Source: a virus (lineage: Duplodnaviria > Heunggongvirae > Uroviricota > Caudoviricetes). From it: a stretch of DNA of 64,000 nt. Both the position numbers and the translations under genes were made by a program. The notes beneath the pieces were generated by a model. It did no database searches. It had not been told where the DNA came from and worked only from the letters and a program-made list of their open reading frames with translations. Shown here one piece after another: positions 4,560 to 5,980 of this stretch (position 1 is its first letter; each line of letters opens with the position of its first letter). The stretch is from IMG/VR virus record IMGVR_UViG_3300029415_000001, one strand, 5' to 3'.

Positions 4560-5024
4560 CAGGGTTTTCGTCATGGTTAGCGACTTTGCGGCGGTTTAGA
4601 AACTGACCATTAAAGTAAATGCAAACGATGATCTGATGATGGTAGCGGCCTAAGAAGCCAGATGCCACGGGGTATGAGTCGTCCCCCGTCAAAAAATCGA
4701 CCGCAGAGTGTCCCCGTCTGTGTATTAGGGAACGGGGAGGCACAACAGGTAAGGGCGCTGGTGTGATTAACCAGATGAACGAGAAGGGGCCTTCTGTTGG
4801 TCAGCGTCCTTTCCTGTTGCGTTTTCTTTTCAGCGTAACAGCGGTGCTTAACAGCACTTTGGGTACAGTTCCACGAATTTACGGGTATATCCCGTCATGC
4901 TGAAGGCGCTAATCACGCTGGAAGCCAGGGTTGTGCATCCCCTGTTACCGAATTGCAGCCAGGGCGCGGTGCGCCGAAAAGCATACGGAGGTGGAAGCCC
5001 TCGCCGGAGACGTACCCGGCAAGT

Positions 5025-5100
5025 GATGGTGTAGCTCAGCGGTTAGAGCGGTTGACTGTTAATCAACGGGTCGATGGTTCAAATCCATCCACCATCGCCA
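5025..5100 (+). tRNA. tRNA-Asn (anticodon GUU)
   Basis: 76-nt cloverleaf folded by hand: acceptor gatggtg/caccatc, anticodon loop cuGUUaa, T-arm GGTTCAAATCC, 3' CCA encoded. Confidence 0.9.
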
Positions 5101-5102
5101 AT

Positions 5103-5178
5103 GCCGGTTTAGCTCAGTTGGTAGAGCGCCTGCCTTGTAAGCAGGATGTCAGCGGTTCGAGTCCGTTAATCGGCACCA
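5103..5178 (+). tRNA. tRNA-Thr (anticodon UGU)
   Basis: 76-nt cloverleaf: acceptor gccggtt/aatcggc, anticodon loop cuUGUaa, T-arm GGTTCGAGTCC, CCA encoded; 2 nt after tRNA-Asn. Confidence 0.9.
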
Positions 5179-5180
5179 GC

Positions 5181-5980
5181 ACAACAGGTAAGGGTATTTT
5201 GCGACGTCGGAGATCGCCGAGCTTGGCAGAGGGTTCGAATCCCTACGAAGTACCCTTACCGTTGTGATGAATGCGCAGGCTGATGCGCGAAAGACATTGC
5301 AGCTATTGCGGAAAAGAGCTGTTCGGCGGGGCAATTAAACGCCCGTGAGAGTCTGAAATAACCGCAAGCCGGAGATCAGCACCGGTCATCACAACACAAC
5401 AGGTAAGGGCATTCTCCCTTATGGGGCTTGGCTTAAATGCATCGAGTGCTCTTACCGTTGTGATGAAGTGCAGCTCTTTGAAGCAACCAGAAGATAAGCA
5501 TCTGGCTTCACAACATAAACCGCAGGAACGACCAATAAACGGTAGTCCGTATGGAGAACACCCCGTTGAGGAAGAGGCCTGGCCGGAACCGTAACCGGCA
5601 CTACAACGTTGAGAACACTGGCGTAACGGGGTCATATCCCAATCTACGAATAAATGTTGCGTTGCAGCGTGACAACCAGTGTTCTCAACATTGTGGTGAA
5701 TGCACAGGCTGATGTGCCGCAACTACAGTAGTGCGCGCTTTGCGGGGCTTGCTACAACCCTGTGTCGGAGTTCAGCACCGACCATCACAGTTTGATTCTC
5801 TGGCATGAGCATAACGCTGAAATAAGTCCAGTCTGGTGCGGTCTGATCACCCGCCGTTAGCTCCACGAAACGGAGCACGTAACAGGTAAGAGCATTCTCC
5901 TGTAACGGGTTCATATCCCAATCTACAGGTCCACCAGGAATGCTCTTTCCGTTGCGGTGAATGCGGCTAAGCGCACGCGG
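5181..5980 (+). repeat. array of about four degenerate tRNA-like stem-loop repeats
   Basis: Recurring left box ACAACAGGTAAG(G/A)G, T-arm-like cores (GGGTTCGAATCCC, GGGGTCATATCCC, GGGTTCATATCCC) and right box CCGTTG(T/C)G(A/G)TGAATGC(G/A)CAGGCTGATG at about 5181-5288, 5391-5480, 5601-5720 and 5877-5980; a left-box copy also at 4741. Confidence 0.5.

What the first reader, a model, noticed from the sequence alone, without database searches (positions are those of the whole stretch)
4741..5980. Array of degenerate tRNA-like stem-loop repeats next to two intact tRNAs
Beyond tRNA-Asn and tRNA-Thr there are about four repeats, each with a conserved left box (ACAACAGGTAAGGG), a T-arm-like core (GGGTTCGAATCCC or GGG(G/T)TCATATCCC) and a conserved right box (CCGTTGTGATGAATGCGCAGGCTGATG). 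Flanks can pair into long stems (perfect 14-bp inverted repeat at 5608-5621 / 5669-5682). The track ORFs here are Cys-rich and likely spurious.
Basis: seen in the sequence. Interest (0 to 1): 0.5.

Follow-up and report, generated by a model that had tools for sequence, protein, structure and literature searches.

The report
Conserved phage tRNA-shaped RNA cassette array
The repeats beside the two P1 tRNA genes are not decayed tRNAs or protein genes but copies of a two-part structured-RNA cassette, shared almost letter for letter by unrelated phages across the Proteobacteria, that displays imitations of tRNA pieces and lies next to an unannotated tmRNA-like tag template.

Summary
Window 4741-6080 (+ strand) holds five long hairpins (H0-H4), each except H0 followed by an "S" element, interleaved with tRNA-Asn and tRNA-Thr. 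It is more than chance: the hairpins fold with z -4.2 to -6.3, and both module types recur with compensatory base changes in about 200 other loci.

This is a tRNA-like four-way junction whose two loops are complementary. Its 23-nt core is identical in phages and prophages of Entero-, Beta-, Gamma- and some Alphaproteobacteria. Rfam STnc100 (related to PasD) has the same architecture, and the last unit matches it weakly.

The left and right boxes pair into a long stalk directly 5' of S. The stalk tips carry a tRNA elbow (H1) or an initiator-tRNA anticodon-loop imitation (H3, H4), not T-arms.

Just upstream (4562-4701) lies a tmRNA-like tag template (ANDDLMMVAA) with no detectable alanine-accepting domain.

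The plp/upl ORFs look spurious.

Most likely this is a co-transcribed, processed array of small-RNA cassettes; its function is untested. It is a new variant of a known kind, with unusually interesting neighbours.

The parts
4562..4701 (+). M module: tmRNA-like PK1-like pseudoknot, tag reading frame, and hairpin with PK2-like pairing. It lies just outside the finding but in the same array. The frame is GCA AAC GAT GAT CTG ATG ATG GTA GCG GCC TAA at 4621-4653, giving tag ANDDLMMVAA.
   Evidence: Rfam gives weak hits: tmRNA_permuted at 4548-4653 (24.1 bits) and beta_tmRNA. The same module in IME11, Magnus and STGO-35-1 aligns to the tmRNA tag region. There are nine tag variants with third-position and synonymous variation. 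Stems CUUUG/UAAAG (4584-4588 / 4611-4615) and GUCG/CGAC (4678-4681 / 4698-4701) covary in relatives. ARAGORN calls no tmRNA.
4711..4738 (+). Hairpin preceding the first stalk (UCCCCGU ... ACGGGGA). It is the equivalent of the conserved GUGUGAUUAAUAA-loop hairpin of other phages.
   Evidence: Alignment A1 with HK633, IME11, Magnus and STGO-35-1.
4741..4821 (+). H0: long stalk hairpin (CACAACAGGUAAGGGCGCUGG / UCAGCGUCCUUUCCUGUUGCG) with a variable tip.
   Evidence: Fold gives -40.3 kcal/mol, z -4.7. Phage D6 keeps the stem through a C-G to U-A change.
5025..5178 (+). tRNA-Asn(GUU) at 5025-5100 and tRNA-Thr(UGU) at 5103-5178.
   Evidence: ARAGORN; Rfam 74.5 and 72.9 bits.
5180..5266 (+). H1: stalk of about 25 bp whose tip is a tRNA elbow without an anticodon arm. 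The tip has a D-like hairpin (5201-5217) and a perfect T-arm AGGGUUCGAAUCCCU (5230-5244).
   Evidence: Fold gives -50.9 kcal/mol, z -5.6. There are weak mascRNA and tRNA-Sec-like Rfam matches only. The same tip occurs in prophage locus L031 right after its M module.
5261..5395 (+). S1: the full S element. Closing helix GUUGUGAUGA / UCAUCACAAC, hairpin 1 at 5273-5288 (loop GGCUGA), a 78-nt insert, and hairpin 2 at 5369-5385 (loop AGAUCAGCA).
   Evidence: It is 98% identical to a piece just downstream of the repressor gene and pL in mEp460 and in Stx phages. The MFE fold is a four-way junction. Covariation was counted on 60 S sequences. It is absent from canonical P1.
5396..5462 (+). H2: stalk hairpin with a short tip and no T-arm.
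   Evidence: Fold gives -36.3 kcal/mol, z -4.2.
5457..5514 (+). S2: reduced S. The closing helix and hairpin 2 (CCAGA-AGAUAAGCA-UCUGG, 5487-5505) are kept; hairpin 1 and the loop-loop complementarity are lost together.
   Evidence: Read from the sequence; repeat family D2. The fold alone is not significant.
5599..5698 (+). H3: 23-bp stalk with a different stem sequence (compensated). The tip has the anticodon-loop-like hairpin GGGGUCAUAUCCC (5628-5640) and a second hairpin.
   Evidence: Inverted repeat I1. Fold gives -55.6 kcal/mol, z -6.3. Alignment with E. coli tRNA-fMet and relatives.
5693..5788 (+). S3: S element with GUGGUGA / CCAUCAC, hairpin 1 at 5702-5717 (GCACA...UGUGC, compensated) and hairpin 2 at 5765-5781 (UCGG...CCGA, compensated).
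5860..5876 (+). Small hairpin GCUCC-ACGAAAC-GGAGC that precedes H4. The same hairpin precedes stalks in other phages.
   Evidence: Seen upstream of the stalk in L010, L031, L013 and L103.
5878..5956 (+). H4: stalk hairpin (CGUAACAGGUAAGAGCAUUC... / ...GAAUGCUCUUUCCGUUGCG) with the anticodon-loop-like tip GGGUUCAUAUCCC (5907-5919).
   Evidence: Fold gives -41.9 kcal/mol, z -4.4. Relative to H1, A-U has become G-C and C-G has become U.G, which points to RNA on the + strand.
5953..6081 (+). S4: STnc100-like terminal unit. UGCGGUGAAU, a hairpin, an insert, CCGGG-AGGCA-CCCGG, CACCGCA, then a U-run at 6076-6081.
   Evidence: Rfam STnc100 37.8 bits, E 5.6e-6, model positions 31-147, below the gathering score of 47. 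Fold z is -2.7. Equivalent hits occur in D6 and Ro157c2YLVW. A full-length STnc100 hit lies in the same kind of array in phage Magnus.

Best explanation
**What it is.** The region is an untranslated, co-transcribed array of structured-RNA cassettes on the + strand. It lies in the long leader between the C1-controlled ban promoters and the downstream genes. Each cassette has two conserved parts.

1. **H, a long stalk hairpin** (18-25 bp, often with a bulged A). Its tip carries a variable payload.
2. **S, a compact element directly abutting H.** S has the dimensions of a tRNA cloverleaf:
   - a 6-7 bp closing helix;
   - a 2-3 nt linker (AAU after the 6-bp helix, AU if the seventh pair forms);
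   - a 5-bp hairpin;
   - a variable arm where the anticodon arm would be;
   - a 5-bp hairpin stacked on the closing helix;
   - two complementary hairpin loops that can kiss like the D and T loops of a tRNA.

**How it most likely works (inferred, not shown).** The precursor is cut at these cassettes by the host enzymes that mature stable RNAs: RNase III on the long stalks, and RNase P with 3'-end enzymes on the tRNAs and the tRNA-shaped S units. This would yield:
- the tRNAs;
- the tmRNA-like M RNA;
- small stalk-tip RNAs that imitate a tRNA elbow or the initiator-tRNA anticodon loop;
- S-type small RNAs of the STnc100/PasD kind;
- a released downstream message.

**Shown:** the modules, their strand, their conservation and covariation, their contexts, and the absence of protein or tRNA signal.

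**Inferred:** transcription through the array, the processing enzymes, and what the released RNAs do.
For: **Structure**
- All five hairpins fold with z between -4.2 and -6.3.
- On 60 distinct S sequences, 94% of cells pair and 18 of 24 pairs show changes on both sides; 0 of 500 shuffles reach this. The closing helix has 5/6 pairs with double changes, hairpin 1 has 5/5 and hairpin 2 has 4/5.
- In distant taxa the outer three pairs of the closing helix covary freely: UGU/ACA, GUU/AAC, GAU/AUC, UGC/GCA, UGG/CCA, GAG/CUC, GCA/UGC.
- The 24 nt directly 5' of S pair with a partner within 205 nt upstream in most cases. There are 192 distinct segments in 121 clusters. Median duplex energy is -23.9, against -17.8 and -18.1 kcal/mol in two controls, p about 1e-23.

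**Strand**
- G.U pairs fall on the + strand.
- A same-strand tRNA lies within 300 nt of 26 of 209 unique S elements, against 1 of 209 on the opposite strand.

**Contexts are untranslated stretches of phage operons**
- 5-7 nt after a pL-type promoter.
- Between nutL (boxA + boxB) and the Shine-Dalgarno of N-like genes. As I recall from the lambda literature (not checked here), lambda has an RNase III site at that position.
- In the leader between pR'/qut and the lysis genes.
- In tRNA arrays of N4-like, Vi1-like and siphoviral phages.
- As an autonomous unit: promoter, M, H, S, tRNA, terminator.

**Known relatives and local signals**
- STnc100 has the S architecture. The Zhu, Shabalina and Storz preprint (doi 10.64898/2026.05.13.724894) describes STnc100 as prophage-encoded and structurally related to PasD, and describes PasD as an Hfq-associated sRNA found by RIL-seq and confirmed by northern blot.
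- No promoter-like site is found at 4250-7400, and the array ends at a U-run, so the cassettes lack their own promoters.
- P1 annotation places the ban promoters and C1 operators just upstream.

**No protein signal**.
Against: - No expression or end-mapping data for this region were found.
- Nothing here shows cleavage by RNase III or RNase P. S lacks a T-loop consensus and a 3' CCA, and its sequence (not only its shape) is conserved, which processing alone does not require.
- A strong intrinsic terminator (4533-4552) lies between the ban promoters and the array, so read-through is assumed.
- S1 and S3 alone are not thermodynamically unusual: z -1.1 and -0.5.
- Support for the loop-loop pairing is weak. 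One pair covaries, in 2 of 4 informative cases.
- Canonical P1 lacks S1, so that unit at least is dispensable.
Confidence: 0.45

Rival explanations
1. **Mimicry or decoy array.** The conserved H and S scaffolds exist to display imitations of translation-apparatus RNAs: a tRNA elbow, the initiator-tRNA anticodon stem-loop, the tmRNA tag region, and in some phages a 16S rRNA helix. These would titrate or misdirect host factors that act on those RNAs. Examples are anticodon nucleases such as initiator-tRNA-cleaving VapC toxins, other tRNA- or rRNA-targeting defence nucleases, SmpB, or ribosomal proteins. This is compatible with the processing model and would be its purpose.
For: - The H tips in mEp460 and about 20 other contexts carry CGGGCUCAUAACCC, identical to E. 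coli tRNA-fMet positions 28-41. Window H3 and H4 carry variants that keep three G-C pairs and CAU.
- H1 and L031 carry a D-like hairpin plus a perfect T-arm.
- The Magnus tip has a tRNA-Leu-like D-arm and a T-arm.
- The variable arm of S in L100 matches 16S rRNA nt 243-282 at 85% over 40 nt, E 6.5e-9; the variable arms of L089 and L103 look similar by eye.
- M imitates the tmRNA PK1, tag and PK2.
Against: - Most payloads resemble nothing identifiable, and S works as a family with inserts as short as 11 nt.
- A 14-nt identity could arise by chance about once in ten such comparisons; this is my own estimate.
- One relative (L032) has C instead of the universal U33.
- No target nuclease is known for P1 hosts, and nothing was tested.
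Confidence: 0.2
2. **Trans-acting regulatory small RNAs.** Each S (with or without its tail) is an Hfq- or ProQ-dependent base-pairing sRNA like STnc100 or PasD. The variable arm or the 3' tail carries the seed, and the conserved core is only a stabilising scaffold.
For: - STnc100 shares the architecture, and S4 hits its model at E 5.6e-6.
- Many S elements elsewhere are followed by a short single-stranded tail and an intrinsic terminator, the usual sRNA layout.
- PasD is described as Hfq-bound with predicted seeds, and STnc100 as its structural relative (doi 10.64898/2026.05.13.724894).
Against: - S1-S3 in the window have no terminator of their own.
- The most conserved parts are structural, not single-stranded.
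- A scaffold role does not explain base-for-base identity across proteobacterial classes.
- No targets were predicted or tested.
Confidence: 0.15
3. **Cis-acting transcription element.** S binds the elongating RNA polymerase or Nus factors, like HK022 put RNA or rrn boxA. This would make the polymerase resistant to Rho and to terminator-like structures across long untranslated arrays. The near-universal conservation would then reflect a conserved polymerase surface.
For: - S lies immediately after pL-type promoters in phages without an N gene. [quoted passage not shown]
- S lies in long untranslated stretches.
- The core is identical across classes.
- The 3' strand of H contains UGCUCUUU, the start of the rrn boxA as I recall it.
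Against: - HK022 has no S, and put RNA has a different fold.
- In several prophages S follows a canonical nutL and precedes an N gene, so it is not the nut site.
- Many S units are followed directly by terminators that define sRNA ends, and STnc100 itself ends at one.
- The boxA-like string is base-paired within the stalk.
Confidence: 0.1
4. **Decaying tRNA pseudogenes or tRNA-linked repeats without function, or real protein genes (plp, upl) on the minus strand.**
For: - P1 annotation lists plp and upl here.
- Copy number varies among P1-like genomes.
- One tip has a T-arm.
Against: - Covariation and cross-phylum conservation argue against junk.
- The T-arm is not a copy of the adjacent tRNAs' T-arms.
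- The annotated P1 plp ORF overlaps tRNA-Thr on the opposite strand, and the corresponding ORFs in this window have different boundaries.
- Protein searches give only near-identical patchy fragments and no family.
Confidence: 0.05

Closest known systems
STnc100 (Rfam RF02076) and the related PasD sRNAs of lambdoid prophages
   Same: - The architecture matches: closing helix xxUGGUGAAU...CACCAxx, a first hairpin right after AAU, a variable middle, and a last hairpin CCGG(G)-AG..GCA-CC(C)GG stacked on the closing helix.
- The context matches: prophage-borne, in untranslated stretches between Q and the lysis genes, with tRNAs nearby.
- The last unit of the window array hits the model at E 5.6e-6.
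   Different: - S1 and S3 do not reach the STnc100 model even at E 10.
- Their two loops (GGCUGA and AGAUCAGCA) are complementary to each other, which STnc100's are not.
- They have no terminator of their own, are preceded by a long stalk, and occur far outside the Gammaproteobacteria.
tmRNA (ssrA), including the two-piece permuted forms and the phage tmRNAs listed by Hudson, Lau and Williams 2014 (PMC4131195)
   Same: - The neighbouring M module has a pseudoknot before a GCA resume-type codon preceded by AUAAAU.
- It has a 10-codon tag, AN(D/E)(D/E)...(A/V)A, then a stop, then a hairpin with pseudoknot pairing.
   Different: - No alanine-accepting tRNA-like domain was found: no G3.U70 acceptor, no T-arm followed by CCA.
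- ARAGORN calls nothing, and the Rfam scores are 24-33 bits against thresholds of 47-84.
- The 2014 survey found ssrA only in mycobacteriophages and Bacillus phage G.
tRNA and tRNA-like structures (mascRNA, bacterial Y RNA YrlA, tRNA-linked repeats of E. coli tRNA operons)
   Same: - S has cloverleaf topology and helix lengths.
- H1 has a real T-arm and a D-like hairpin on an acceptor-like stem.
- The modules sit in tRNA operons on the tRNA strand.
   Different: - There is no anticodon arm.
- S has no T-loop consensus.
- No tRNA call is made.
- The YrlA consensus is unrelated to the stalk sequence.
- The repeats do not copy the 3' end of the adjacent tRNAs, which, as I recall it, is what defines tRNA-linked repeats.
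HK022 put RNA and lambda-type nut sites or N-leader processing site
   Same: The position is the same: directly after pL, or between nutL and the N start codon.
   Different: - The fold and sequence differ from put RNA, and S is absent from HK022.
- S coexists with canonical boxA/boxB.

Membership tests
tRNA (RF00005 / ARAGORN) | Cloverleaf with an anticodon arm, a T-loop and a 7-bp acceptor stem, scoring above the family threshold | tested here: not met
   Only 5025-5100, 5103-5178 and 7179-7254 are called. No repeat reaches even E 10 for tRNA. H1 gives tRNA-Sec 13.7 bits and mascRNA 14.9 bits.
STnc100 (RF02076) | Score at or above the gathering threshold of 47 bits | tested here: not met
   S4 (5953-6073) scores 37.8 bits, E 5.6e-6, over model positions 31-147 only. 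S1 and S3 give no hit at E 10. A full hit of 52.9 bits exists in phage Magnus in the same kind of array.
STnc100 (RF02076) | Architecture: closing helix UGGUG/CACCA, AAU, 5' hairpin, variable middle, 3' hairpin CCGG..GCA..CCGG abutting the closing helix | tested here: met
   Comparison of the Rfam consensus and structure line with the S consensus and its counted pairs.
tmRNA | Tag reading frame with a resume codon, flanked by pseudoknots | tested here: met
   Applies to the M module at 4562-4701.
tmRNA | tRNA-like domain: acceptor stem with G3.U70, T-arm, 3' CCA | tested here: not met
   No T-arm followed by 7-8 nt and CCA occurs outside true tRNAs, and none at all in arrays without tRNA genes. 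In S the 3:70 pair is G-C in 58 of 60 sequences. ARAGORN is negative.
Bacterial Y RNA (YrlA, RF02553) | Ro-binding stem plus a tRNA-like domain, scoring at or above 69 bits | tested here: not met
   The only hit, 25.6 bits, spans the two real tRNAs. The consensus is unrelated to the stalk.
HK022 put RNA | Two-stem V-shaped RNA of about 70 nt downstream of pL/pR that binds the beta' zinc-binding domain | tested here: not met
   No S-like sequence occurs in HK022 24000-40751. The fold described in PMC9378689 differs. Polymerase binding is not testable here.
tRNA-linked repeats (E. coli tyrT-type) | As I recall the definition: the repeat contains an 18-19 nt copy of the 3' end of the adjacent tRNA | tested here: not met
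   The H1 T-arm AGGGTTCGAATCCCT differs from tRNA-Thr GCGGTTCGAGTCCGT and tRNA-Asn ATGGTTCAAATCCAT.
Known self-cleaving ribozyme classes (Rfam) | Match to the hammerhead, twister, pistol, hatchet, HDV-like or other ribozyme models | tested here: not met
   No such family appears at E 10 in 4300-7400. Catalysis itself is not testable with these tools.
Protein-coding genes plp / upl | Conserved protein with homologues beyond near-identical DNA | tested here: not met
   No Pfam family. Only 20 hits in 5.8 billion proteins, at 73-100% identity and 19-98% coverage, with lengths of 78-163 aa.

The most novel reading that the evidence does not exclude
The M, H and S modules together may form a previously unrecognised, widely exchanged phage RNA system that acts on the host translation apparatus.

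- In one version it is a rearranged tmRNA. The tag template (M) sits 5' of a self-contained tRNA-shaped domain (S) instead of being nested inside it, and phage-specified tags (ANDDLMMVAA and relatives) are added to stalled proteins.
- In a second version it is a display rack of tRNA, tmRNA and rRNA imitations that disarms tRNA-targeting defences.
- A further unexcluded reading is that the S core, with its invariant junction and kissing loops, is a new self-cleaving ribozyme that punctuates phage transcripts.
Probability: 0.2. Interest if true: 0.9.

Novelty: new variant of a known kind. Interest (0 to 1): 0.7.

Why it matters
**Annotation.** P1 is one of the most used phages in genetics, yet this 1.5-kb stretch is annotated as two doubtful proteins.

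**Reach of the family.** The data show that the stretch belongs to a family of structured-RNA cassettes with three unusual properties:
- its core is conserved base for base across classes of Proteobacteria;
- it is present in roughly a fifth of complete E. coli genomes (1060 of 5426 for the S1 region, 660 of 5426 for M);
- it is unannotated in RefSeq.

**Link to known sRNAs.** The family ties the Hfq-associated prophage sRNAs STnc100 and PasD to a much larger and older group, and suggests how such sRNAs are built, namely a scaffold plus a variable arm.

**An open question made testable.** The tag template without an acceptor domain raises the question of whether enterobacterial phages carry their own ribosome-rescue or tagging RNA.

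**Possible new anti-defence mode.** If the tips are decoys for tRNA-targeting toxins, this would be a new mode of phage counter-defence.

Tried and rejected
- **phi80 M3 RNA, a classic RNase P substrate, as the S element.** Rejected: M3 is annotated as the oop homologue at 36229-36288, and phi80 was not seen to carry S.
- **YrlA / Y RNA.** Rejected: the consensus is unrelated.
- **HK022 put.** HK022 has no S.
- **S or H derived from rRNA, ssrA or RNase P RNA.**
  - Local alignments with shuffling controls found nothing significant for the S halves.
  - The stalk strand shares CAGGTAAGGGT and GGTAAGAGC with RNase P RNA nt 168-197, but E is 0.76, so this is treated as chance.
  - The loop of hairpin 1, GGCUGAU, equals tmRNA nt 3-9. 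It is noted but not relied on.
- **H or S as the alanine-accepting domain for M.** There is no conserved G3.U70 and no CCA.
- **The flanking half-stalks closing around M as a tmRNA acceptor stem.** Rejected as a general rule: in STGO-35-1, L035 and this window M has no upstream half-stalk.
- **boxA function for UGCUCUUU.** The string is base-paired in the stalk, and true boxA/boxB sites exist separately.
- **Literature searches by sequence strings and tag peptides.** These found nothing.
- **The P1 genome paper.** It could not be read.
- **A covariance model of S.** Not built: the variable insert (11-177 nt) would have needed hand-made structure columns, and pattern-anchored sets already gave unbiased halves.
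Full report
**1. Where the window comes from**

The window is a P1-like phage-plasmid. Bases 4700-6100 are 99.6% identical to phage RCS47 and 99% identical to P1 over the parts they share.

In P1's own annotation this stretch follows dmt, the two ban promoters with their C1 operators, and a 'dicF-like region'. It holds trnA (Asn), trnT (Thr) and two minus-strand ORFs, plp and upl. Then come tciABC, trnI and ban.

In this window the dicF-like region ends at a strong terminator at 4533-4552. No sigma-70-like promoter is found anywhere in 4250-7400.

**2. Checking the observation**

*Boxes and hairpins*
One exception: the right arm of the 'perfect' inverted repeat is at 5676-5689, not 5669-5682.
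- There are five long hairpins: H0 4741-4821, H1 5180-5266, H2 5396-5462, H3 5599-5698 and H4 5878-5956.
- Each folds far better than shuffled sequence, with z between -4.2 and -6.3 and 0 of 200 shuffles as good.

*Tool calls*
- ARAGORN and Rfam see only the three true tRNAs.
- Nothing else in the region reaches a gathering score.
- The only notable sub-threshold hit is STnc100 at 5953-6073: 37.8 bits, E 5.6e-6.

*Evidence for an RNA on the + strand*
- Between copies the stems change by compensation. For example, CACAAC/GUUGUG in H1 becomes CGUAAC/GUUGCG in H4, and H3 has a different but complementary stem.
- The wobble pairs are G.U on the + strand.

**3. The boxes are two modules, not one**

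The stretch between two hairpins (5255-5397) is 98% identical to a piece of lambdoid phages such as mEp460, IME207 and Stx phages. In mEp460 it lies just downstream of the repressor gene and pL.

A more sensitive search showed that the first 35 nt of this stretch recur at 91-96% identity in phages that share nothing else with P1:
- T1-like Klebsiella phages;
- Vi1-like Klebsiella phages of 157-160 kb;
- N4-like phage IME11;
- HK97-like phage HK633;
- Salmonella phage STGO-35-1;
- Erwinia and Enterobacter phages.

In each case the match lies in a long noncoding gap, often with tRNA genes.

Reading those loci side by side gave the anatomy.

*The S element.* Its consensus is:
- NNN-GGUGAAU;
- hairpin GCGCA-GGCUGA-UGCGC;
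- a variable insert of 11-177 nt;
- hairpin (G)CCGG-AGAUCAGCA-CCGG(C);
- CACC-N'N'N'.

The first part of the 'right box' is its 3' strand.

**4. Support for the S structure**

I collected S elements in two ways, so that each half could be examined without selection on it: one set anchored on the 5' half and one anchored on the 3' half.

*Pair counts on 60 distinct sequences with the insert removed*
- 94% of cells pair.
- 18 of 24 pairs show changes on both sides.
- No shuffle of 500 reaches the observed values.
- Slid registers give 26-51% pairing.
- By helix, the pairs with double changes are: closing helix 5/6, first hairpin 5/5, second hairpin 4/5.

*The loop-loop pairing*
- The two hairpin loops are complementary (GCUGA with UCAGC).
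- Covariation there is thin. G-C becomes A-U in two of four sequences with a changed loop, and G.U occurs in eight.

*Shape*
- The minimum-energy folds of S1 and S3 give a four-way junction. The last hairpin is stacked on the closing helix, and two to three unpaired bases follow the closing helix.
- That is the layout and helix lengths of a tRNA, with the anticodon arm replaced by the insert.

**5. Taxonomic range**

An exact search for the 23-mer GGTGAATGCGCAGGCTGATGCGC in one genome per species found 102 loci:
- many Enterobacterales;
- many Betaproteobacteria, including Janthinobacterium, Achromobacter, Comamonas, Pandoraea, Herbaspirillum and Polynucleobacter;
- other Gammaproteobacteria, including Marinobacterium, Salinicola, Pseudoxanthomonas and a Pseudomonas;
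- a few Alphaproteobacteria;
- a few metagenome bins of other phyla.

In these loci the core is unchanged, while the outer three pairs of the closing helix vary in a compensated way.

Among complete E. coli genomes, 1060 of 5426 match the S1 region, and none of the matches listed carries an annotation beyond tRNA-Thr.

**6. Support for the H stalk**

I took the 24 nt just upstream of every distinct S, with no requirement on their sequence. This gave 192 distinct segments in 121 clusters at 75% identity.

| Test | Median duplex energy (kcal/mol) |
|---|---|
| Segment against the 205 nt just upstream | -23.9 |
| Shuffled segment | -17.8 |
| Same segment against DNA further upstream | -18.1 |

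The difference has p about 1e-23.

The stems have quite different sequences in different phages, for example:
- CCACAGGAGGGCCGG... / ...CCGGCCCUCCUGUG;
- ACACAACGGGAAGAACACUGGGGG / ...CCCAGUGUUCUUCCCGUUGUG;
- CCAACUGUAACGACGCUUCA / GGGAGCGUCGUUACAGUUGU.

So the stalk is selected as a helix. The ACAACAGGUAAGAGCAUUG allele is simply the commonest one.

**7. What the stalk tips carry**

- **H1.** The tip is a D-like hairpin (5201-5217) plus a textbook T-arm (5230-5244) on an acceptor-like stem. It is a tRNA elbow with no anticodon arm. The same tip follows the M module in prophage locus L031.
- **H3 and H4.** In mEp460 and about twenty other contexts the tip hairpin is CGGGCUCAUAACCC. This is identical to the anticodon stem-loop of E. 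coli initiator tRNA, including its three G-C pairs and the CUCAUAA loop. The window copies, GGGGUCAUAUCCC and GGGUUCAUAUCCC, are variants that keep the three G-C pairs and CAU.
- **Magnus.** The tip has a tRNA-Leu-like D-arm and a T-arm.
- **S inserts.** In L100 the variable arm of S matches 16S rRNA nt 243-282 at 85% over 40 nt, E 6.5e-9. The arms of L089 and L103 look similar by eye.
- **Other payloads.** Many resemble nothing I could identify.

**8. The neighbour: a tmRNA-like tag template (M)**

Weak Rfam hits to permuted tmRNA models fell at the same relative place in the window (4548-4653) and in IME11, Magnus and STGO-35-1.

The five sequences align over about 190 nt. The conserved centre reads ...AUAAAU GCA AAC GAU GAU ... 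GCG GC(N) UAA. This aligns to the resume codon and tag of the Rfam tmRNA models.

*Tags*
- The window encodes ANDDLMMVAA at 4621-4653.
- Other phages encode ANDDVVLMAA, ANDEQFLAVA, ANEEMYLAVA, ANEEVYLAVA, ANDDLMLMAA, ANDNLMMVAA, ANEEMYLAAA and ANDDQFLAVA.

*Coding signature among 18 distinct tag sequences*
- Differences by codon position: 610 at third positions, against 368 and 282 at first and second.
- Synonymous codon differences: 155 in this frame, against 16 and 81 in the other two frames.

*Flanking structure*
- Upstream is a pseudoknot-like pair of helices (GUUUU/GAAAC and CUUUG/CAAAG). The second helix is kept in IME11 as UUAUG/CAUAA.
- Downstream is a hairpin whose loop pairs with a following segment. 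That pairing covaries as CCGA/UCGG, CCAG/CUGG, CCAA/UUGG and GUCG/CGAC.

This is the core layout of a tmRNA.

*What is missing*
- The tRNA-like domain could not be found.
- No T-arm followed by an acceptor strand and CCA exists outside real tRNA genes. Arrays without tRNA genes have none at all.
- ARAGORN calls nothing.
- The S closing helix has G-C, not G.U, at the third pair.

*Prior knowledge and spread*
- The 2014 census of ssrA found it only in mycobacteriophages and Bacillus phage G (PMC4131195).
- Searches for the tag peptides in the literature found nothing.
- M occurs in 660 of 5426 complete E. coli genomes. In the matches listed it is annotated as nothing or as 'hypothetical protein'.

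**9. Contexts**

S elements lie on the same strand as nearby tRNAs: 26 of 209 have a same-strand tRNA within 300 nt, against 1 of 209 on the opposite strand.

They are found in these places:
- 5-7 nt after the expected start site of a pL-type promoter (L102);
- between a canonical nutL (boxA CGCUCUUUAACA plus a boxB hairpin) and the Shine-Dalgarno of genes whose products have the arginine-rich N terminus and the C-terminal motif of P22-type N proteins;
- in the leader between pR'/qut and the holin gene (HK633, L031);
- followed by a short tail and an intrinsic terminator, like an sRNA gene;
- in STGO-35-1, inside an autonomous unit of promoter, M, hairpin, H, S, tRNA-Met and terminator, set antisense to the structural genes.

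STnc100 itself has the S layout followed by a tail and terminator. A recent preprint describes it as prophage-encoded and structurally related to PasD, and describes PasD as an Hfq-associated sRNA (doi 10.64898/2026.05.13.724894).

**10. Copy number in P1 relatives**

- Canonical P1 lacks S1. H1 and H2 are fused there, as if by recombination between the repeated frames.
- D6 has a tRNA-Ser(UGA) between an S and the last stalk.
- Ro157c2YLVW has an extra tRNA-Tyr.
- P7, SJ46 and D6 cover only 62-68% of the region.

The array is therefore modular and shuffled, while the modules themselves are conserved.

**11. The ORFs**

- None of the ORFs over the repeats has a Pfam family.
- The 139-aa ORF at 5303-5722 (minus strand) finds only 20 proteins among 5.8 billion. 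All are 73-100% identical, cover 19-98% of the query and are 78-163 aa long. That is the pattern of ORF calls on mosaic DNA.
- P1's plp overlaps tRNA-Thr on the opposite strand.

**12. Interpretation**

*What is shown.* This is an array of conserved, strand-specific structured-RNA modules in an untranslated operon leader, with tRNA-like shapes and payloads that imitate translation RNAs.

*What I infer as most likely (0.45).* The cassettes are processing and scaffold units.
- The long stalks are the kind of duplex that RNase III cuts.
- The tRNA-shaped S units, like the tRNAs beside them, would be handled by RNase P and 3'-end enzymes.
- The leader would thus be converted into a set of stable small RNAs, and the downstream message released.

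From memory of the literature (not checked here), lambda has an RNase III site between nutL and N, and P1's C4 RNA is matured by RNase P.

*Rivals.* The rival readings (decoys, trans-acting sRNAs, antitermination) mostly concern what the products are for. They are not excluded.

*What processing alone does not explain.* It does not account for the base-for-base conservation of the S core across proteobacterial classes. That points to a demanding tertiary fold or a conserved partner, and keeps open the possibility of a catalytic RNA.

**13. Novelty and score**

The S element is best filed as a new, much wider variant of the STnc100/PasD kind. The last unit does not reach Rfam's threshold and the inner units do not hit the model, so I do not call them members.

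I found no description of three things:
- the stalk-plus-S cassette;
- the initiator-anticodon imitation on the stalk tips;
- the orphan tag template.

I score interest at 0.7. The finding itself is a well-supported new RNA family in a classic phage, and it makes a sharp question directly testable: can a tag template work without an acceptor domain?

Noticed in passing
window 4562-4701 (+): A tmRNA-like module with a pseudoknot, a GCA resume-type codon, the 10-codon tag ANDDLMMVAA, a stop, and a hairpin with pseudoknot pairing. It is conserved, with other tags, in unrelated phages. It is present in 660 of 5426 complete E. coli genomes and unannotated in the matches listed. No alanine-accepting domain was found.
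   Followed up: yes
window 4444-4552 (+): The 'dicF-like region' of P1's annotation ends in a strong intrinsic terminator (4533-4552). This sits between the ban promoters/operators (about 4340-4372) and the RNA array, so transcription of the array and of ban needs read-through or antitermination.
   Followed up: partly
L225, L260, L235, L247, L025, L050 (prophage pL regions): In several prophages an S element with an extended closing helix lies between a canonical nutL (boxA plus boxB) and the start of a P22-type N-like gene. As I recall, lambda has its N-leader RNase III site at that position.
   Followed up: partly
L100 (minus strand, S variable arm); L089 and L103 similar by eye: The variable arm of this S element matches E. 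coli 16S rRNA nt 243-282 (helix 11) at 85% over 40 nt, E 6.5e-9.
   Followed up: partly
L008 1679-2320 (Salmonella phage STGO-35-1): A self-contained noncoding unit of promoter, M, hairpin, H, S, tRNA-Met(CAU) and terminator lies antisense between the tail-tube and minor-capsid genes.
   Followed up: partly
window 5185-5195, 5887-5895; E. coli rnpB nt 168-178 and 189-197: The 5' strand of the stalk shares CAGGTAAGGGT and GGTAAGAGC with two neighbouring stretches of RNase P RNA. The loop of hairpin 1, GGCUGAU, equals tmRNA nt 3-9. The E-values are poor, so these are probably chance.
   Followed up: partly
window 6107-7151 (+): Where P1 has tciA/B/C, this window has a 78-aa membrane-like ORF and a 275-aa SPFH/Band 7 protein (Pfam E 1e-30). 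The same arrangement occurs in Ro157c2YLVW, where the gene is annotated as 'putative serine protease'.
   Followed up: no
L002 2440-2527 (phage D6): The D6 tRNA with a UGA anticodon, annotated tRNA-Ser, scores 43 bits on the Rfam tRNA-Sec model (threshold 47) and sits between an S element and the last stalk. In L006, IME11 has an odd tRNA with a two-base 'anticodon' call next to tRNA-Ile.
   Followed up: no
window 32286-32476 (+) and 53412-53481 (-): Rfam finds isrK and C4 antisense RNA side by side (the P1 immunity I region) and an IS10 RNA-OUT. C4 and isrK also occur next to the S-bearing pL region of mEp460 (L004 470-658).
   Followed up: no
window 4880-4896 and 4993-5012 (+): Between H0 and tRNA-Asn lie a small hairpin ACGGGUAUAUCCCGU, which resembles the H3/H4 tips, and CCGGAGACGUACCCGG, which resembles the second hairpin of S. 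They may be remnants of a degraded S unit.
   Followed up: no
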